Virus genome (UHGV): UHGV-0288291
From: a virus
Length of the DNA stretch: 10,125 bases
Direction: 5' to 3' (one strand)
Below the pieces are notes generated by a model. That model had not been told where the DNA came from. It saw only the letters and a list, made by a program, of their open reading frames with translations, and made no database searches. The position numbers were made by a program, and so were the translations under genes. Of this stretch, positions 1-4,603 are shown one piece after another; position 1 is the first letter of the stretch; each line of letters opens with the position of its first letter.

Positions 1-118
1 AACCGGGCGCGAAAGGTGTCGGCTCGTTGAAGGACGGCACCCACCAGTAAACATCCTCCTCCACGCCACGGCGGGTATATTTTGCCGGTGAGGTTTCCAG
101 TCTGATGATCTTACCGGT
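1..118 (-). repeat. Duplicated fragment of the portal-gene internal region (copy of 333..450)
   Basis: Read by eye, 1..118 is identical to 333..450. The minus-strand sense encodes ...TGKIIRLETSPAKYTRRGVEEDVYWWVPSFNEPTPFAPGS. The copy starts at the window edge and may extend further left. Confidence 0.7.
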
Positions 119-270
119 AACCTGTTTCTCTATGCCCCACAGGGGAAAGCCGACGGCATTAAAATTATCCCGCTCAGTGAAGTGGCGACGAAGGACGATT
201 TTTTTAATATCAAAAAAGCCAGCGCCGTTGACCTGCTGGATGCGCACCGCATCCCCTTTCAGTTGATGCT
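119..270 (+). repeat. Duplicated fragment of the portal-gene 3' region (copy of 659..810)
   Basis: 119..270 matches 659..810 with 3 mismatches (188 vs 728, 228 vs 768, 240 vs 780). It encodes NLFLYAPQGKADGIKIIPLSEVATKDDFFNIKKASA(V/A)DLLDAHRIPFQLM. Homology ends abruptly at 270/271. Confidence 0.7.
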
Positions 271-570
271 GAGATATTCCGGCAGGCCGTACAGCTCCTG
301 ATTAATATCCGGCTCCAGCAGGTGAAACACGGAACCGGGCGCGAAAGGTGTCGGCTCGTTGAAGGACGGCACCCACCAGTAAACATCCTCCTCCACGCCA
401 CGGCGGGTATATTTTGCCGGTGAGGTTTCCAGTCTGATGATCTTACCGGTGGTGCTGTAACGCTTTTCCAGAAACGCATTACCGAACACCAGAAAATCCA
501 GCACAAAGCGGCTGAAATCCTGTTGCGAAAGCCACGGATGCGGGATAAATGTCGAGGCCAGAATATTGAT
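271..570 (-). pseudogene. Q: Portal protein (gpQ-like) internal fragment, inverted relative to the 3' part of the same gene
   Basis: Clean minus-strand reading frame (part of track ORF 259..648) encoding INILASTFIPHPWLSQQDFSRFVLDFLVFGNAFLEKRYSTTGKIIRLETSPAKYTRRGVEEDVYWWVPSFNEPTPFAPGSVFHLLEPDINQELYGLPEYLS. It lies head-to-head with the plus-strand portal 3' part at about 570/571. The in-frame stop at 259-261 falls inside the adjacent duplicated segment. Confidence 0.6.
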
Positions 571-979
571 GTACGTCACCGATGCCGTGCAGGACCGCAA
601 CGATATCGAAATGCTTCGCGAAAACATGGTGAAGTCGAAAGGCCGCAATAACTTTAAAAACCTGTTTCTCTATGCCCCACAGGGGAAAGCCGACGGCATT
701 AAAATTATCCCGCTCAGTGAAGTGGCAACGAAGGACGATTTTTTTAATATCAAAAAAGCCAGCGCCGCTGACCTGCTGGACGCGCACCGCATCCCCTTTC
801 AGTTGATGGGCGGCAAGCCGGAGAACGTCGGGTCGCTGGGTGATATTGAGAAAGTGGCAAAGGTCTTTGTCCGCAATGAGCTTATCCCGCTACAGGACAG
901 GATCCGCGAGATAAACGGCTGGCTCGGTCAGGAGGTCATCCGCTTTAAAAACTACTCACTGGACACTGACAACGGCTGA
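569..979 (+). CDS. Q: Portal protein (gpQ-like) C-terminal portion, 136 codons; 5' part of the gene not colinear
   Basis: Track ORF 566..979 starts on a TTG; the first ATG is at 569. It is followed by an intrinsic terminator and then cos about 170 bp downstream, the position of Q in P2. The translation (MYVTDAVQDRNDIEMLRENMVKSKGRNNFKNLFLYAPQG...) matches my recollection of the P2 Q C-terminus; this needs alignment to confirm. Confidence 0.65.
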   Translation: MYVTDAVQDRNDIEMLRENMVKSKGRNNFKNLFLYAPQGKADGIKIIPLSEVATKDDFFNIKKASAADLLDAHRIPFQLMGGKPENVGSLGDIEKVAKVFVRNELIPLQDRIREINGWLGQEVIRFKNYSLDTDNG

Positions 980-1167: not shown

Positions 1168-1451
1168 CGCCCGCTTCGTGGGGCGGTTTTAATGCAGTTG
1201 CATAGATACTATGGATCCGCACCAGTCCTGACCGCACGCAGCCTGAACGGACATCCCCAACGCATGCAAAAACATTCACTTGTTGCATGCATAGCTTTTT
1301 AAGTACGCCATACCGCAACTGTACATTTTTAAGCAATTGGCAACCTTAAAAAATTTACATTGCTTTCAAGACCTTATCATCCGTAGTCTCTGTTTTTTAC
1401 TTTGAGCTACATCAATAAAATCTCAAACATGTTTAATGCAAAGCCCTTGTT

Positions 1452-1505
1452 ACACAACATAGAATGTATGTCTAGAAACAACGACATACTATATGTTGTG
1501 TTTTT
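1452..1505 (+). other. Long imperfect hairpin followed by a T5 run (terminator- or attenuator-like RNA structure)
   Basis: ACACAACATA (1452-1461) pairs with TATGTTGTGT (1492-1501), and an inner TATGTC (1467-1472) pairs with GACATA (1483-1488). TTTTT follows at 1501-1505. The element is AT-rich. Confidence 0.4.
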
Positions 1506-1567
1506 CCGGCTCTCTGTTCGGTGATATGCCAAATCACTTTGCGTTTAAACAGAGCATTATTTCAGGG

Positions 1568-1582
1568 CAAGACTTCGCTCAA
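1568..1582 (+). repeat. 15-bp direct repeat CAAGACTTCGCTCAA, copy 1
   Basis: Exact 15-mer also present at 1832..1846. The two copies bracket the micro-ORF and its terminator. Confidence 0.5.
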
Positions 1583-1645
1583 AAGTCATTCCACCTAAGA
1601 AGCGCATATACCGGTGGAAGTTGCCCTCTACTTACAGGAGGCAAT

Positions 1646-1759
1646 ATGAAGAAATGCTATTACTGCATTCTCGTTCTGGCCCTCTTTGGCTATCCAAACG
1701 GTAGTCCGAGTGGTTTGTCAGTAAACGTCAGTAATATCAATGTCAGCATTATGCTTTAA
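1646..1759 (+). CDS. Hypothetical 37-aa hydrophobic peptide (MKKCYYCILVLALFGYPNGSPSGLSVNVSNINVSIML) in the cos-A variable locus
   Basis: Consensus Shine-Dalgarno AGGAGG (1636-1641) 4 nt before the ATG at 1646; a strong intrinsic terminator follows immediately. N-terminal hydrophobic stretch. Convergent with gene A. The track's 88-aa version starts inside a hairpin with no SD. Confidence 0.4.
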   Translation: MKKCYYCILVLALFGYPNGSPSGLSVNVSNINVSIML

Positions 1760-1771
1760 TATGCTTCAAAC

Positions 1772-1801
1772 AAAAAAACCACCTGCCAGGGTGGTTTTTT
1801 T
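1772..1801. terminator. Bidirectional rho-independent terminator
   Basis: AAAAAAA, ACCACC, TGCCAG, GGTGGT, TTTTTTT. The A-tract upstream and T-tract downstream let it serve both the plus-strand micro-ORF and the minus-strand A operon. Confidence 0.7.
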
Positions 1802-1831
1802 GCGCCCATCATCAATACGATGAAAGACTGA

Positions 1832-1846
1832 CAAGACTTCGCTCAA
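1832..1846 (+). repeat. 15-bp direct repeat CAAGACTTCGCTCAA, copy 2
   Basis: Exact match to 1568..1582. Confidence 0.5.
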
Positions 1847-2061
1847 GACGAATTATGCGTCGACATAAGGTTACCCGCAATGATTTTATTAGACTAAATG
1901 GATGGCCTTTTATGACCCGGATCAAACGGCTGTCCTTACCGACATGCTAGTCACTCAATAGCATTTAGCCTTCTAATTCAGCATGCTATTGACCTTCTGC
2001 TGCCCCATAACTGCTCCGCATAAGCCATTCAATGCCATATCAAATCACGTTGTGTTTTTAC

Positions 2062-4338
2062 TCAAATGGGTAACGAGAACCCCGGCCACTCATCAGCAAC
2101 CGGATACGTGAATTTTTTCCCGTCATAATTTACGGTCGCGCCACGCGCCAGCGCCTCAAGCTCCCATCGTTGCGGCCTGATACCGTTCTGAGCGAGGTCA
2201 ACGCGGATACGGGTAATTTGCAATCGTTCAGACCTGGTCAGTCTGGCAGATGGTGCAATTTCATGCGGTTTTAACGGGATTCCGTTTCTTTGCTGACGAT
2301 TTGGTGTTCTCAGTCCGTGTTTTAATGCGCCCCTGAGCGCCATCACGACCTCCGGGTCACTCCATTCGATAACACCGTCATCTACCAGATTAAGCACTGC
2401 TGCGGCGTGCTCAGAAGGTGTGGGAGCCGGTAACGAAGTATCACCACCGGTGAGCTTTCCACAGTTATTGACAGGACTCCGAGGCGCGGCGATGCCGCTT
2501 TTTAAAGTCAAAGGCTCAACGACCGGAACTTTCGGCACAATGCGCCAGTCCGTCGTTCTGGTGATATGAATATGACGCGCGCCGAGATGCGGCGCGTAAA
2601 TGCCGACCACTCTCTCGACTTCTTCCTCGTACTCGTTAACGTCATCCGACAGACTACGGGCGACCCTGACAGTCTGACAATCGCGCGGGACATTTGCCCC
2701 GCCCTGCGCGCTGATATACAGCGCAAAATCACCACTGTCTGCGGCGGCGCGTGCAGCCTCGACGCGCTCGTCAAACTCATCAGCAATGCTGACGCCGCGA
2801 GGCAATTTGCGTAGTTCACGGTAAGCCCCCATTGTCGGCAGGCCAACCGTTTTAAATTGCGGAATGCGCCACGTTGACGCCCATGCGGTAACAGCCGCTG
2901 CAGTGTCTTTCAGCGGCCTGCCGGTGTCGTTATCGAGCTGACCATCCAGTGCATAGCCGTCGATGTTTTTTGAAATGTATTTCGCGATATATCCCGCAGC
3001 ACCGCCCCGGTTAAGGTGTTTTGCCTGAAAACGGTTTCGCGCGGCTCCTCTTTCGTCGCCATCCTCTTTGAGCGCATAGCGACGCATGATTTCGATAATC
3101 TGGTTACGCTGGCGTGGATGACAAAAAAGCATCATATGCCAGTGCGGCGTTCCGTCGTGGTGTGGCTCGACGACTCGCAAACCGTAGACCTGTAAATCAT
3201 TATCCTTGAATGCCGTGCGCATCAGGCTCCAGATACGGCAGAGATAACGCTGCGCATCCTTTGGATTAAATGCCTCATCGTTCCAGCCGTGATTAAGCTG
3301 AACGGTTTTACTTTCGCCTTTTCCGACCTGACGTGTCGGGTGATACTTTGACGGCGCGGTCAGCGTGATAAACATCCCCACATCACCCTCTGCGGCGGCG
3401 TAACGCTCAATACCGGCAATGGTGTTCATCAGCTCCATCCGGCGAATTTCAGGATTAGAAATACTGCCCATCACCTTACTGATAAGGTCGATGCGCTCGC
3501 CGGTTTCCCTGTTTTCAAGGTCACACGATTTAAGAAATTCCAGATTTGCCTGGCGGCGCGCACGCACATCACGAATGGCGTGTTTACTGGCATAAGGAGA
3601 ACGGTCTTTATTGACCTCCCCGACAGCTATCAGTAACGCCTCATGCCAGCGCATACGCTGGCCTTTAAGCTGACTAATCCACCACTCATCGTTAAACAGG
3701 CGGGCAATGGCAGAATATGCCTGCCTCGTGGTCATCTGTCCTTTACGGTATTTTTTCCAGTAGAGCGGGGAAATATTGAAAGCACGTGCAGCGCCAGCAA
3801 CATGACCATACAGGTGAGCCTGCGCCTCATCCGTAAACAGCGATTCTTTTTCACCATGCGCATCAACCCATGCATCGCAGAGTTCCTCATACATCATGAA
3901 AAGCTGCGATGAGATACGGGCGGCAAACTTTTTCAGCTCCTTGTCATTCATTCCCGGCAGGCGCGCATAGTGGTCACGCTCTGCCAGAAACAGCAACGAC
4001 GCGTCGGTGTTCATTTCATGGCGCTGATTCACACGCTCAATGCGCGGCCATAAACGACGCTGAAAAGTAGATGTGAGGAAATAAAACCCGTGCACCGGGC
4101 TTTTATTGCGCCGGATGTAGTCATAGCGTGAAGTAAACAGCGAGCGCAAAAAGTAAGGCAGGCGGTTAATCGTGGATAAAACACCTTGCACCTGACGCAT
4201 CTCGTCACGTGTAAGAGGTCTTTCGCGCCCGACAGCCTCGCGTGGCGCGTTCCATGCATAAGCACCGGTAAACGCCTTACCGGTGCCTGCGGTAAATGCT
4301 GACGGAGGGACAAAACGCCCGGAGGCTTTAACGGCCAT
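2062..4338 (-). CDS. A: Rolling-circle replication initiator (P2 gpA-like HUH endonuclease)
   Basis: 758-aa product. The first ATG is at 4338; the track start at 4380 is a TTG. HUH motif HWHMM is encoded at 3130-3144. The GYIAKYIS tyrosine pair (Y-x3-Y) is encoded at 2971-3000, typical of phiX174/P2-type initiators. Its start overlaps the end of the upstream small ORF. Confidence 0.9.
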   Translation of the reverse strand: MAVKASGRFVPPSAFTAGTGKAFTGAYAWNAPREAVGRERPLTRDEMRQVQGVLSTINRLPYFLRSLFTSRYDYIRRNKSPVHGFYFLTSTFQRRLWPRIERVNQRHEMNTDASLLFLAERDHYARLPGMNDKELKKFAARISSQLFMMYEELCDAWVDAHGEKESLFTDEAQAHLYGHVAGAARAFNISPLYWKKYRKGQMTTRQAYSAIARLFNDEWWISQLKGQRMRWHEALLIAVGEVNKDRSPYASKHAIRDVRARRQANLEFLKSCDLENRETGERIDLISKVMGSISNPEIRRMELMNTIAGIERYAAAEGDVGMFITLTAPSKYHPTRQVGKGESKTVQLNHGWNDEAFNPKDAQRYLCRIWSLMRTAFKDNDLQVYGLRVVEPHHDGTPHWHMMLFCHPRQRNQIIEIMRRYALKEDGDERGAARNRFQAKHLNRGGAAGYIAKYISKNIDGYALDGQLDNDTGRPLKDTAAAVTAWASTWRIPQFKTVGLPTMGAYRELRKLPRGVSIADEFDERVEAARAAADSGDFALYISAQGGANVPRDCQTVRVARSLSDDVNEYEEEVERVVGIYAPHLGARHIHITRTTDWRIVPKVPVVEPLTLKSGIAAPRSPVNNCGKLTGGDTSLPAPTPSEHAAAVLNLVDDGVIEWSDPEVVMALRGALKHGLRTPNRQQRNGIPLKPHEIAPSARLTRSERLQITRIRVDLAQNGIRPQRWELEALARGATVNYDGKKFTYPVADEWPGFSLPI
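2468..2487 (-). promoter_or_regulatory. Candidate replication origin / A-protein nick region inside gene A
   Basis: The plus strand reads TTGACAGGACTCCGAGGCGC, the reverse complement of GCGCCTCGGAGTCCTGTCAA, which I recall as part of the P2 ori nick region located within the A coding sequence. This is recollection only and needs alignment. Confidence 0.35.
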
Positions 4339-4603
4339 ATGAGCCAAAAGCCTCTGAACAACGCTTGCTGAGTTGCTCAACCTGCGCGTTTAAATCAGCA
4401 AAAGATTTTGCGCTTCCGGTCAGAATATCGTGATGCATCAGGCCGGAAACGAGCTGGCCTAATTTCGGGTAATAACCAACCACCGCCAGCCATTCCTGAC
4501 CGGCGTTTTTACCGCTTTCCGCTCTCTTTTTCTCGTGGAGAATAAACTGAAAGCTGTCACTGGTAACGACATAACGTTTGCCAATTTCAATACGAATACT
4601 CAT
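4328..4603 (-). CDS. Hypothetical protein (P2 orf83 position), 91 aa
   Basis: ATG at 4603 overlaps the upstream stop (ATGA); SD-like GGAGAA upstream. Immediately precedes A. Confidence 0.6.
   Translation of the reverse strand: MSIRIEIGKRYVVTSDSFQFILHEKKRAESGKNAGQEWLAVVGYYPKLGQLVSGLMHHDILTGSAKSFADLNAQVEQLSKRCSEAFGSYGR

What the first reader, a model, noticed from the sequence alone, without database searches (positions are those of the whole stretch)
1452..1645. Highly structured AT-rich leader upstream of the micro-ORF
Three layers of dyad symmetry precede the micro-ORF. A long imperfect hairpin with T5 tail at 1452-1505 looks like a terminator or attenuator. A 7-bp stem CTCTGTT (1512-1518) / AACAGAG (1548-1554) encloses a smaller GTGAT/ATCAC hairpin (1521-1537). 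A 7-bp stem TTCCACC (1589-1595) / GGTGGAA (1613-1619) lies just before the SD. This density is more than expected for a plain 5' UTR. It suggests either a regulatory leader or an independent small RNA whose terminator is the 1452-1505 hairpin. An upstream hairpin GCATGCAA...TTGCATGC (1262-1290) may also belong to it.
Basis: seen in the sequence. Interest (0 to 1): 0.5.

Follow-up and report, generated by a model that had tools for sequence, protein, structure and literature searches.

The report
sRNA-controlled small-peptide cassette, borrowed nrdD promoter
The "structured leader" is the promoter and 5' untranslated region of an unannotated, mobile toxin-antitoxin-like cassette: a 37-residue membrane peptide, a facing small RNA that pairs with the leader, and a promoter copied from the anaerobic ribonucleotide reductase gene nrdD. 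The cassette is carried by P2-like prophages and by hundreds of Klebsiella and Salmonella plasmids.

Summary
All three dyads exist at the stated coordinates, but they are different things.

**Dyad 1 (1452-1505) is promoter DNA, not a terminator.**
- Window 1346-1505 is homologous to the E. coli nrdDG promoter.
- It keeps two FNR sites 31 bp apart and a -10 TAGAAT.
- The hairpin arms are NrdR-box half-sites.
- The strong hairpin and T-run occur only in this lineage.
- The predicted start (~1472) lies inside the hairpin.

**Dyads 2 and 3 are real RNA helices.** Dyads 1512-1554 and 1589-1619 are helices of a ~174-nt 5' UTR and are supported by compensatory changes across about 14 lineages.

A ~75-nt small RNA gene lies on the minus strand (~1846-1771).
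- It has a conserved promoter, TTGCGG-17-CATAAT.
- It shares a bidirectional terminator with the ORF.
- Its 5' end is complementary to leader 1566-1582.
- Seed and target covary at four positions, with G·U intermediates.
- The same bases also covary with a competing intramolecular helix that ends a few bases before the Shine-Dalgarno sequence.

**The 37-codon ORF** is under purifying selection.

**No match** was found in Rfam, Pfam, NCBIfam, PADLOC or the literature searched. The nearest analogues are TimP/TimR and par/Fst.

**Not demonstrated:** toxicity, FNR/NrdR control, and how pairing silences the mRNA.

The parts
1346..1505 (+). nrdDG-type promoter region, homologous to the E. coli treC-nrdD intergenic region
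   Evidence: Window 1346-1447 is about 80% identical to the nrdD upstream region in all 5426 E. coli genomes. The alignment continues more loosely to about 1505.
1402..1415 (.). FNR-2-type site TTGAGCTACATCAA
   Evidence: Identical to the K-12 nrdD site and matches 9 of 10 consensus positions. The half-sites are kept while the spacer varies among lineages.
1433..1446 (.). FNR-1-type site, weakened here (TTAATGCAAAGCCC)
   Evidence: Lies 31 bp from the FNR-2 site, as in nrdD. It reads TTGATGCAAA... in the other lineages.
1460..1465 (+). -10 hexamer TAGAAT, giving a predicted mRNA start near 1472
   Evidence: Aligned with TAAAAT of nrdD. It reads TAGAAT or TAAAAT at a fixed distance from the FNR-1 site in all lineages. 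The start site is inferred, not mapped.
1452..1467 (.).
   Evidence: Matches 4 of the 6 conserved box positions; T11 and G13 are missing. PWM score is about 10 bits, below the training boxes.
1486..1501 (.).
   Evidence: Matches 6 of 6 conserved positions and is the top PWM hit of the whole window (17.8-19.5 bits). It is homologous to nrdD box 2.
1472..1645 (+). Predicted 5' UTR of the micro-ORF mRNA
   Evidence: Runs from the inferred start to the start codon. It contains a 50-nt block that is invariant in the P2 lineages.
1512..1554 (+). Leader helices S1 (1512-1518/1548-1554) and S2 (1520-1525/1533-1538)
   Evidence: 100% of cells pair across 10 lineages. Four pairs show compensatory double changes, with a G·U intermediate in L048.
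1564..1570 (+). P1 helix, 5' strand (AGGGCAA), overlapping the sRNA target
   Evidence: Pairs with 1621-1627. The helix is kept in all 14 lineages (6-7 of 8 pairs) with G-C/U·G/U-A, G-C to A-U, and C-G to U·G to U-A series.
1566..1582 (+). Target of the small RNA. It includes hairpin A (stem 1571-1574/1584-1587) and its loop.
   Evidence: An exact 15-nt repeat lies at 1832-1846, giving a 17-bp duplex. Covariation with the sRNA gene copy is seen at four positions. Hairpin A covaries as well.
1589..1619 (+). Its loop AGAAGCGCA is conserved.
   Evidence: Five of its 8 pairs show double changes across 14 lineages.
1621..1627 (+). P1 helix, 3' strand (UUGCCCU), ending 8 nt before the Shine-Dalgarno sequence. 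It can alternatively pair with 1636-1645.
1636..1641 (+). Shine-Dalgarno sequence AGGAGG
   Evidence: Read from the sequence. Conserved as GGAGG or GGTGG in all lineages.
1646..1759 (+). Micro-ORF of 37 aa, MKKCYYCILVLALFGYPNGSPSGLSVNVSNINVSIML
   Evidence: Length is conserved at 37 codons, or 39 in the Salmonella-plasmid group. Variable sites by codon position are 22/13/33, and pN/pS is 0.23-0.46. The 88-aa in-frame extension is broken by a stop in the sister lineage.
1771..1802 (.). Bidirectional intrinsic terminator shared by the mRNA and the sRNA
   Evidence: A 13-bp perfect inverted repeat with A/T runs on both sides, -18.5 kcal/mol. It is nearly invariant in all lineages.
1771..1846 (-). 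Predicted small RNA of about 75 nt: 5' seed, variable hairpin, terminator
   Evidence: Folds at -31.5 kcal/mol, z = -4.2. The hairpin is kept by unrelated sequences in different lineages, with double changes in 3 pairs. Its ends are inferred.
1852..1880 (-). Promoter of the small RNA: TTGCGG (1880-1875), a 17-nt spacer, CATAAT (1857-1852)
   Evidence: -10 CATAAT is the same in all five lineages read (window, 86%, Citrobacter, Klebsiella, Salmonella plasmid); -35 is TTGCGG, TTGCGA or TTGCGT. The spacer is 17 nt in four lineages and by my count 18 in the Salmonella plasmid, and its sequence differs between lineages.

Best explanation
Window ~1346-1880 is one self-contained mobile cassette built like a type I toxin-antitoxin system. 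The flagged stretch is its promoter-proximal DNA plus its 5' UTR.

1. **Promoter.** It is derived from, or shares ancestry with, the anaerobic ribonucleotide reductase promoter PnrdDG. It has two FNR sites 31 bp apart, a -10 TAGAAT and NrdR boxes. It drives an mRNA that starts near 1472.
2. **The first 'hairpin' (1452-1505).** It is the DNA-level symmetry of two NrdR-box half-sites that flank the -10 and start region. It is not an RNA terminator.
3. **The leader.** The ~174-nt leader folds into conserved helices: S1/S2 (1512-1554), then a three-way junction. In the junction, helix P1 (1564-1570 with 1621-1627) encloses hairpin A (1571-1587) and hairpin B (1589-1619). P1 ends 8 nt before the Shine-Dalgarno sequence.
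4. **The small RNA.** A convergent ~75-nt RNA runs from ~1846 to 1771 on the minus strand, with its own sigma-70 promoter. It shares the bidirectional terminator with the mRNA. Its 5' end pairs with leader 1566-1582, that is, with the 5' strand of P1 and with hairpin A.
5. **Consequence of pairing.** Pairing must open P1. I infer that this silences the 37-aa ORF. Three routes are possible: freeing the P1 3' strand to pair with the ribosome-binding region, blocking a ribosome standby or entry site, or creating a duplex that RNase III cleaves.
6. **The peptide.** It has a signal-anchor-like N-terminus and an alternating polar/hydrophobic tail. I infer it is a membrane-active toxin or growth modulator, made mainly when FNR is active (low oxygen) and, in lineages with two intact boxes, when NrdR releases the DNA (low dATP).

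**Shown by sequence comparison:** the promoter homology, the RNA helices, the sRNA gene signals, seed-target covariation, and coding selection.

**Inferred:** the transcript ends, FNR and NrdR control, the silencing mechanism, and toxicity.
For: **Promoter**
- Window 1346-1447 matches the treC-nrdD intergenic region of all 5426 E. coli genomes at ~80%. The FNR-2 site is identical, and the FNR-1 site and -10 are in register.
- The NrdR-box rules come from PMC13584703. Window 1486-1501 meets 6 of 6 conserved positions and is the best PWM hit in the 10 kb, even with a matrix built without the nrdDG boxes.
- Other lineages carry canonical box pairs: L079 with a 15-bp linker, L053 with 16 bp, L055 with 26 bp, and the Salmonella plasmid and L072 with 15 bp.

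**Leader helices:**

**Small RNA**
- A 15-nt exact repeat.
- -10 CATAAT unchanged and -35 TTGCG(G/A/T) across lineages, with spacers of unrelated sequence.
- A body hairpin made from unrelated sequences, with compensatory pairs.

**Pairing**
- In the Salmonella-plasmid group, both the leader site and the sRNA-gene copy read GGTAAGGCTTTGCTCA instead of GGCAAGACTTCGCTCA. That is three changes in each copy.
- L079 changed G to A in both copies.
- Every one-sided difference inside the duplex is a leader-G: sRNA-U wobble (window, L053, L055).
- The same leader bases covary with the P1 3' strand and with the hairpin A 3' strand.

**ORF:** fixed length and pN/pS of 0.23-0.46.

**Mobility:** the cassette is in 152 of 5426 E. 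coli genomes, always between portal and gpA of P2-like prophages. It is also on 414 plasmids, 394 of them Klebsiella, and on Salmonella IncF plasmids.
Against: - No transcript ends, expression data or toxicity data exist. The one RIL-seq/dRNA-seq strain I could check (K. pneumoniae MGH 78578, plasmid pKPN3) lacks the cassette.
- In the window lineage itself the NrdR operator looks decayed. It has one full box plus a half-box with an 18-bp linker, and the ancestral box-1 position is lost. The FNR-1 site is weakened to TTAAT. The literature says two boxes are required.
- Thermodynamic ensembles of the full mRNAs do not consistently show that blocking the sRNA site lowers Shine-Dalgarno accessibility. 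The site is predicted to be mostly paired in both states, and P1 probability ranges from 0 to 0.99 among lineages.
- The target lies 64-80 nt upstream of the start codon, so direct occlusion is excluded.
- Concerted change of two direct repeats could in principle come from gene conversion. However, the identical tract is only ~16 nt, within unrelated flanks.
- The peptide matches no known toxin family.
Confidence: 0.72

Rival explanations
1. First reader's reading. 1452-1505 is an intrinsic terminator or attenuator. It either ends an independent upstream small RNA or prematurely stops the leader transcript.
For: The hairpin is strong (-19.7 kcal/mol, z = -5.5) and is followed by T5 in this window.
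Against: - The terminator scan does not call it, because the stem is AT-rich.
- In the 86% sister lineage a 2-nt deletion removes the inner stem (-8.7 kcal/mol) and the tail becomes TTGTT. The other lineages have no equivalent.
- Its arms are NrdR-box half-sites within an nrdD-homologous promoter, and the -10 lies inside the left arm.
- A transcript starting at the homologous +1 lacks the left arm.
Confidence: 0.04
2. Same architecture, but the peptide is not a toxin. It would be a small membrane protein with a physiological role under anaerobiosis or dNTP limitation, whose synthesis is merely tuned by the small RNA.
For: - TimP, the nearest analogue, is harmless at native expression levels.
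- The RNR-type promoter suggests a link to physiology.
- The peptide matches no toxin family.
Against: - The cassette spreads as an autonomous unit on plasmids and prophages.
- It combines a tightly conserved dedicated antisense RNA with a strong Shine-Dalgarno sequence on a long structured leader. That combination is the hallmark of type I toxin loci (established knowledge).
Confidence: 0.22
3. The two copies of CAAGACTTCGCTCAA are DNA-level sites, either protein-binding direct repeats or recombination relics. On this view the leader acts only in cis, as a thermosensor or riboswitch-like element, without a small RNA.
For: The repeat is direct and conserved at the DNA level. No RNA data exist.
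Against: - The downstream copy sits immediately after a conserved -35/-10 on the minus strand and is followed by a conserved-structure hairpin and a terminator.
- One-sided differences are exclusively G·U-compatible.
- The same bases covary with intramolecular RNA partners.
- No ORF for a binding protein belongs to the cassette.
Confidence: 0.04

Closest known systems
timP/TimR (ryfA locus) of Salmonella and E. coli (PMC7667032)
   Same: - A ~38-41-aa peptide with a signal-sequence-like hydrophobic N-terminus.
- An abundant, poorly translated mRNA with a long 5' UTR.
- A neighbouring small RNA whose 5' end pairs with a short stretch of that 5' UTR. A segment of the leader is repeated in the sRNA gene.
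   Different: - No demonstrable sequence homology. hhalign gives 9% probability, covering only the first 11 residues. There is no NCBIfam hit and no RyfA or other Rfam hit.
- TimR is divergent and upstream of its target gene. Here the sRNA is convergent and downstream, and shares the terminator.
- timPR is a chromosomal core locus. This cassette is on prophages and plasmids and has an nrdD-type promoter.
par locus of Enterococcus faecalis pAD1 (Fst toxin, RNA I / RNA II); stated from my own knowledge
   Same: - Toxin mRNA and antitoxin RNA are transcribed convergently.
- They share a bidirectional intrinsic terminator.
- They are complementary at their 5' regions, because the two genes carry direct repeats.
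- It is a mobile-element maintenance module.
   Different: - par is a Gram-positive system.
- Its repeats flank the fst ribosome-binding site, so pairing occludes it directly. Here the single target lies 64-80 nt upstream, inside a structural junction.
- The peptide has no Fst/Ldr-family signature (Pfam: no hit).
tisB/IstR-1, zorO/OrzO, shoB/OhsC and dinQ/AgrB of E. coli; from my own knowledge, plus PMC7708055 and PMC11264685 from the abstracts and passages returned by the search, not read in full
   Same: - A short (about 15-21 nt) complementarity between a separately transcribed sRNA and the far-upstream part of a long, structured toxin 5' UTR.
- The ribosome-binding site is sequestered in the primary transcript.
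   Different: - Those sRNAs are divergent and upstream.
- Their promoters are SOS-controlled or unknown, not FNR/NrdR-type.
- The peptides and RNAs are unrelated (Rfam OrzO-P gives only a sub-threshold match on the terminator).
E. coli and Salmonella nrdDG promoter (FNR-activated, NrdR-repressed)
   Same: About 80% identity over ~100 bp. The FNR-2 and FNR-1 sites, the -10 and NrdR box 2 are all in register.
   Different: - It drives a 37-aa ORF instead of nrdD. The 5' UTRs are unrelated beyond box 2.
- In this window box 1 has been replaced by a half-site and the linker is 18 bp.

Membership tests
Type I toxin-antitoxin system | Small (<60 aa) hydrophobic ORF that is conserved as coding | tested here: met
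   A 37/39-codon ORF with a hydrophobic N-terminal segment and pN/pS of 0.23-0.46.
Type I toxin-antitoxin system | Adjacent gene for an RNA complementary to the toxin mRNA | tested here: met
   Promoter, seed, hairpin and terminator on the minus strand. The 15-17-bp duplex covaries at 4 positions. Evidence is in silico only.
Type I toxin-antitoxin system | Peptide is toxic when overexpressed, and the RNA neutralises it | not testable with these tools
   No experimental data found. The RIL-seq strain's plasmid pKPN3 lacks the cassette.
TimP/TimR (RyfA, Rfam RF00126) | Sequence homology of the peptide or RNA to TimP/RyfA | tested here: not met
   hhalign probability of 9%. No NCBIfam hit. No Rfam hit even at E<=10.
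TimP/TimR (RyfA, Rfam RF00126) | sRNA encoded divergently, upstream of the toxin gene | tested here: not met
   The sRNA gene is downstream and convergent.
par/Fst-type architecture | Convergent genes sharing a bidirectional terminator, with direct repeats giving 5' complementarity | tested here: met
   Terminator at 1771-1802 with U-runs on both strands. Repeats at 1568-1582 and 1832-1846.
par/Fst-type architecture | Fst/Ldr-family peptide, with the pairing region overlapping the ribosome-binding site | tested here: not met
   No Pfam hit. The target lies 64-80 nt upstream of the AUG.
nrdDG-type promoter / NrdR regulon | Homology to PnrdDG, with two FNR sites 31 bp apart and a -10 in register | tested here: met
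nrdDG-type promoter / NrdR regulon | Two NrdR boxes with C4 and G13, separated by 15-16 (or 26-27) bp | tested here: not met
   In the window, one box scores 6/6 and the other 4/6 (G13 and T11 absent), with an 18-bp linker. The feature is met in relatives L079, L053, L055, L052/L054 and L072.
nrdDG-type promoter / NrdR regulon | Actual activation by FNR and repression by NrdR-ATP/dATP | not testable with these tools
   Needs reporter assays or binding assays.
Rho-independent terminator / attenuator (for 1452-1505) | G+C-rich stem followed by a U-run, conserved in relatives | tested here: not met
   Not called by the scan. The stem and U-run are lost in relatives.

The most novel reading that the evidence does not exclude
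A previously unrecognised, widely mobile family of type I toxin-antitoxin cassettes whose toxin gene is wired to the cell's ribonucleotide-reductase control circuit (FNR plus the dATP/ATP sensor NrdR). The peptide would be released when oxygen falls and dNTP supply collapses. That could happen during phage takeover, replication stress, or loss of the element. The cassette would then work as a nucleotide-pool-sensing suicide or growth-brake module in the P2 defence hotspot and on Klebsiella and Salmonella plasmids. It would also be the first paired NrdR operator outside RNR operons.
Probability: 0.3. Interest if true: 0.8.

Novelty: new variant of a known kind. Interest (0 to 1): 0.62.

Why it matters
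- **An overlooked regulatory unit in well-studied elements.** The cassette is unannotated or called 'hypothetical' in thousands of assemblies. It sits in the P2 gpA-cos cargo hotspot and on large Klebsiella IncF plasmids that carry resistance and virulence genes. If it is a toxin-antitoxin or maintenance module, it bears on plasmid and prophage stability and possibly on phage defence.
- **A natural dataset for RNA mechanism.** It shows one set of nucleotides covarying with two mutually exclusive partners, an sRNA and an intramolecular strand. This is the signature of an RNA-triggered conformational switch, and it can be tested directly by compensatory mutagenesis.
- **A possible extension of the NrdR regulon.** The promoter would extend FNR/NrdR control to a non-RNR gene on mobile DNA. 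A recent survey of E. coli K-12 and P. aeruginosa PAO1 found no non-RNR gene with more than one NrdR box (bioRxiv 10.1101/2025.03.28.645925). This family supplies natural variants with 15-, 16-, 18- and 26-bp linkers and half-boxes for testing NrdR binding rules.

Tried and rejected
- **Rfam.** No family was found for the window at gathering thresholds. At E<=10 over 950-2150, only sub-threshold matches on the terminator appeared (RNAI, Phe_leader, OrzO-P). The Klebsiella and Salmonella loci gave the same result.
- **Protein family libraries.** Pfam, PHROGs, NCBIfam and PADLOC gave nothing for the peptide family.
- **Tool limits.** The search for homologous proteins and the search for related loci refuse queries shorter than 40 aa. 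I replaced them with degenerate DNA patterns.
- **88-aa in-frame ORF (1493-1759), called by some annotators.** Rejected, because TAG at 1583 breaks it in the sister lineage.
- **TimP homology.** Rejected.
- **Full-text search for the seed, target and peptide strings.** No paper found. Keyword searches found no description either.
- **Experimental support from the K. pneumoniae MGH 78578 dRNA-seq/RIP-seq/RIL-seq study.** Its plasmid sRNAs KpnR_127 and KpnR_128 flank a hok gene. All of pKPN3 was scanned and lacks the cassette.
- **'sRNA binding frees an anti-SD strand that closes the ribosome-binding site'.**
  - Supported for short constructs and for the window mRNA: P(anti-SD:SD) rises from 0.11 to 0.69.
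  - Not consistently supported in full-length ensembles of the 14 lineages.
  - Kept only as one of three possible mechanisms.
- **Second repeat, 1517-1546 vs 2028-2057 (73%).** It does not co-vary in relatives and is treated as unexplained or chance.
- **Boston & Atlung 2003 (nrdD start site).** The paper could not be read. The -33.5 and -64.5 positions are from memory and from spacing.
Full report
**Context.** The window is a P2-like (Peduovirus) prophage, read in reverse relative to the P2 map.
- The portal gene 3' end lies at 566-979 (+). The cos region follows.
- The replication endonuclease gpA lies at 2062-4380 (-).
- The finding therefore lies in the gpA-cos interval. In related phages this interval carries variable cargo. 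One example is an AAA_15/AAA_21 ATPase pair in E. coli W.

**Check of the observation.** All dyads exist where stated.
- Only 1452-1505 is exceptional energetically: -19.7 kcal/mol, z = -5.5.
- 1512-1554, 1589-1619 and 1262-1290 have z of about -2.
- Rfam gives nothing at gathering thresholds. At relaxed thresholds it gives only sub-threshold terminator look-alikes.

**Dyad 1 is promoter DNA.**
- *Homology to nrdD.* A sensitive BLAST of 1340-1900 hit every one of 5426 E. coli genomes over query 7-108, at ~80% identity. The hit is the treC-nrdD intergenic region, that is, the nrdDG promoter.
- *Promoter elements in register.* In the alignment the phage keeps the upstream FNR site TTGAGCTACATCAA (1402-1415, identical to K-12). 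A second FNR-like site lies 31 bp downstream (1433-1446: TTAAT... here, TTGAT... in relatives). TAGAAT (1460-1465) aligns with nrdD's TAAAAT. ATATGTTGT aligns with nrdD's NrdR box 2.
- *NrdR boxes.* I applied the published box rules: 16 bp, with C4, A6, A8, T9, T11 and G13 conserved. C4 and G13 are critical, two boxes are required, and the linker is 15-16 or 26-27 bp (PMC13584703, PMC12176259).
  - 1486-1501 (ATACTATATGTTGTGT) scores 6/6. It is the best PWM hit in the whole window, even with a matrix built without the nrdDG boxes.
  - 1452-1467 (ACACAACATAGAATGT) has a perfect left half but lacks T11 and G13.
Both are copies of one palindromic consensus.
- *Start site.* By homology the transcript starts about 7 nt after the -10, near 1472, inside the 'hairpin'. 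This is an inference. The -33.5 and -64.5 FNR geometry of nrdD is from my memory of Boston & Atlung 2003 and Roca et al. 2008, which I could not read.
- *Conservation.* The strong hairpin and T5 run are private to this lineage. The 86% sister lineage has a 2-nt deletion (-8.7 kcal/mol) and TTGTT. Other lineages have nothing comparable.
- *Operator in relatives.* Several relatives keep textbook operators:
  - L079: 6/6 + 6/6 boxes, 15-bp linker.
  - L053: 16-bp linker.
  - L055: 26-bp linker.
  - Salmonella plasmid and L072: 15-bp linker.
- *Operator in this window.* The ancestral box-1 position (1443-1458) is lost and the linker to the half-box is 18 bp. NrdR control of this particular copy is therefore doubtful.

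**Relatives.** The cassette is a discrete mobile unit of about 1345-1925.
- It is in 152 of 5426 complete E. coli genomes, always between portal and gpA.
- It is in P2-type phage records, in IMG/VR contigs and in a Citrobacter genome.
- It is on 414 plasmids, 394 of them Klebsiella and mostly conjugative IncF.
- A much more diverged form is on Salmonella IncFIC/FII plasmids.
- A pattern built on the sRNA gene architecture retrieved further lineages from viral and metagenome contigs. This gave about 14 distinct lineages in all.
- It is unannotated in most of the records I examined. The micro-ORF is occasionally called 'hypothetical protein'.

**The micro-ORF codes.**
- Its length is fixed at 37 codons, or 39 in the Salmonella-plasmid group.
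- Variable sites by codon position are 22/13/33.
- Pairwise pN/pS is 0.23-0.46.
- The 88-aa in-frame extension called by some pipelines is interrupted in the sister lineage.
- The consensus is M-x-(K/R)-x-x-x-C-I-L-V-L-(A/T)-L-F-G-Y-P-x-G-S-x-S-G-(L/W)-S-V-x-V-S-x-I-x-V-x-I-x-L. It has a signal-anchor-like N-terminus and an alternating polar/hydrophobic tail.
- No Pfam, PHROG, NCBIfam or PADLOC family matches.

**Dyads 2 and 3 are conserved RNA helices.**
- *S1/S2.* S1 is 1512-1518/1548-1554 and S2 is 1520-1525/1533-1538. Every cell pairs in 10 lineages, against at most 55% when slid. Four pairs show double changes (0/500 shuffles). The series A-U, then G·U (Enterobacter plasmid), then G-C (Citrobacter) occurs at one pair.
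- *Hairpin B and hairpin A.* For hairpin B (1589-1619) plus hairpin A (1571-1587), 86% of cells pair against at most 54% when slid. Six pairs show double changes, and the covariation score is exceeded by 0/500 shuffles.
- *Helix P1.* A further helix, P1 (1564-1570 with 1621-1627), encloses both hairpins and ends 7-11 nt before the Shine-Dalgarno sequence. It is present in all 14 lineages, with the series G-C/U·G/U-A, G-C to A-U, and C-G to U·G to U-A. That table was fitted to the helix, so it leans towards it.

**The missed component: a convergent small RNA.**
- *Repeat.* CAAGACTTCGCTCAA occurs at 1568-1582 and again at 1832-1846. A chance 15-mer repeat in ~1.1 kb is expected about 6e-4 times by my estimate.
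- *Promoter.* On the minus strand the second copy follows directly after TTGCGG-17 nt-CATAAT (1880-1852). In the five lineages I read (window, 86%, Citrobacter, Klebsiella, Salmonella plasmid) CATAAT is unchanged and the -35 varies only at its last base (TTGCGG, TTGCGA, TTGCGT). The spacer is 17 nt in four of them and, by my count, 18 in the Salmonella plasmid. The spacer sequences are unrelated.
- *Body and terminator.* A hairpin follows that is built from unrelated sequences in different lineages, with three pairs showing double changes. The perfectly conserved bidirectional terminator at 1771-1802 comes next.
- *Duplex.* The predicted ~75-nt RNA would pair through its 5' end with leader 1566-1582 over 17 bp.
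- *Covariation across lineages:*

| Leader position | Pair types observed |
|---|---|
| 1567 | G-C; G·U (window, L053); A-U (L079) |
| 1568 | C-G; U-A (Salmonella-plasmid group) |
| 1572 | A-U; G·U (L053, L055); G-C (Salmonella-plasmid group) |
| 1576 | C-G; U-A (Salmonella-plasmid group) |

- *Wobble signature.* Every one-sided difference inside the duplex is leader-G : sRNA-U.
- *Competing partners.* The same leader bases covary with their intramolecular partners in P1 (1567, 1568) and in hairpin A (1572). These nucleotides therefore have two mutually exclusive, selected partners.
- *Alternative explanations.* Gene conversion or a DNA-binding protein would explain neither the wobble bias nor the RNA-partner covariation.

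**Mechanism.**
- *Shown by comparison.* The sRNA pairs with the 5' strand of P1 and with hairpin A, which must open the junction.
- *Inferred.* This silences the ORF.
- *Switch model.* In the window mRNA, blocking 1566-1582 shifts the P1 3' strand to the Shine-Dalgarno/AUG flank: P(anti-SD:SD) rises from 0.11 to 0.69. Short constructs of most lineages behave likewise.
- *Limits of that model.* Full-length ensembles are inconsistent, and the Shine-Dalgarno sequence is predicted to be mostly paired in both states.
- *Other routes.* Standby-site blockage (as in tisB/IstR-1) or RNase III cleavage of the duplex (as in zorO/OrzO) are equally open.
- *Regulatory logic.* Expression under low oxygen via FNR, and derepression at low dATP via NrdR where two boxes survive, follows from homology only.

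**Comparison with known systems.**
- *TimP/TimR.* This is the closest functional analogue: a small signal-sequence peptide, with the sRNA 5' end pairing in the 5' UTR. Homology is not detectable, and the gene order differs.
- *par/Fst.* The convergent layout with a shared terminator and repeats is that of par/Fst of pAD1 (my own knowledge). In par, however, the pairing covers the ribosome-binding site.
- *Promoter.* It is a member of the nrdDG promoter lineage by sequence.
- *Prior description.* I found none. No Rfam, Pfam or NCBIfam model matches. No full-text hit exists for the seed, target or peptide strings. Nothing appeared in keyword searches.
- *NrdR regulon.* A recent NrdR regulon survey of E. 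coli K-12 and P. aeruginosa PAO1 reports that no non-RNR gene has more than one NrdR box.

**Verdict.**
- It is a regulatory leader.
- It has no upstream terminator or small RNA.
- The first 'hairpin' is an RNR-type operator and promoter.
- The unit is a new variant of the type I toxin-antitoxin design, widespread on mobile elements.
- Toxicity, transcript ends and regulator dependence remain to be shown.

Noticed in passing
window 1-808: The left end of the window is a mosaic. 1-118 is repeated exactly at 333-450, and 119-268 recurs at 659-808 (98%). These are fragments of the portal-gene 3' region. Related genomes show an intact portal gene here, so this looks like a rearrangement or an assembly artefact.
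   Followed up: partly
E. coli RefSeq records (e.g. NZ_CP168035, NZ_CP185789, NZ_AP021892, NZ_LR883965): In many 'complete' E. coli chromosomes the cassette sits at exactly 2279-3139. These assemblies therefore appear to start at the prophage gpA replication gene. Circularisation software probably chose it as the origin gene.
   Followed up: no
window 1883-1925; L047, L046, L052 equivalents: A block upstream of the sRNA promoter (TTTATTAG ... TTATGAC ... ATCA) is conserved in all lineages although its surroundings diverge. It may be an UP element, a regulator site or a second promoter. Its function is unknown.
   Followed up: no
window 1599-1607 and 1542-1548: The loop of hairpin B (AGAAGCGCA) is almost invariant across lineages. 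It is complementary to UGCGUUU in the internal loop of S1, so a tertiary or pseudoknot contact is possible.
   Followed up: no
window 1661-1692: About 30 nt of the ORF (TACTGCATTCTCGTTCTGGCCCTCTTTGG) are identical at the nucleotide level, synonymous sites included, between the E. coli and Citrobacter lineages, which differ by ~25% elsewhere. This hints at an RNA-level constraint inside the coding region.
   Followed up: no
window 1517-1546 and 2028-2057: A second direct repeat (73% identity) links the S2 region to the sequence just after the gpA stop codon. It does not co-vary in relatives and remains unexplained or due to chance.
   Followed up: partly
L001 700-2698; L037, L038, L040: Some carriers have an AAA_15/AAA_21 ATPase plus a partner gene inserted between cos and the cassette. 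Others, including this window, have nothing there. The cassette is the constant neighbour of gpA, and the cargo varies beyond it.
   Followed up: partly
window 1771-1802; small plasmids (H87; H211-H218): The terminator hairpin and its flank are 89-100% identical over 29-44 nt to a stretch of small (2-6 kb) E. coli, Shigella, Salmonella and Klebsiella plasmids. This may explain the weak Rfam RNAI matches.
   Followed up: no
L090 57-156 and ~385-480 (E. coli K-12 sseA-ryfA region): The K-12 timR region appears to contain two tandem TimR-like units (terminator plus similar body). Only one is annotated.
   Followed up: no
cluster members P0002, P0004, P0007: Rare variants read through the leader stop (CAG instead of TAG at 1583) or are recombinants between the two P2 lineages. 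This shows recombination within the cassette.
   Followed up: no
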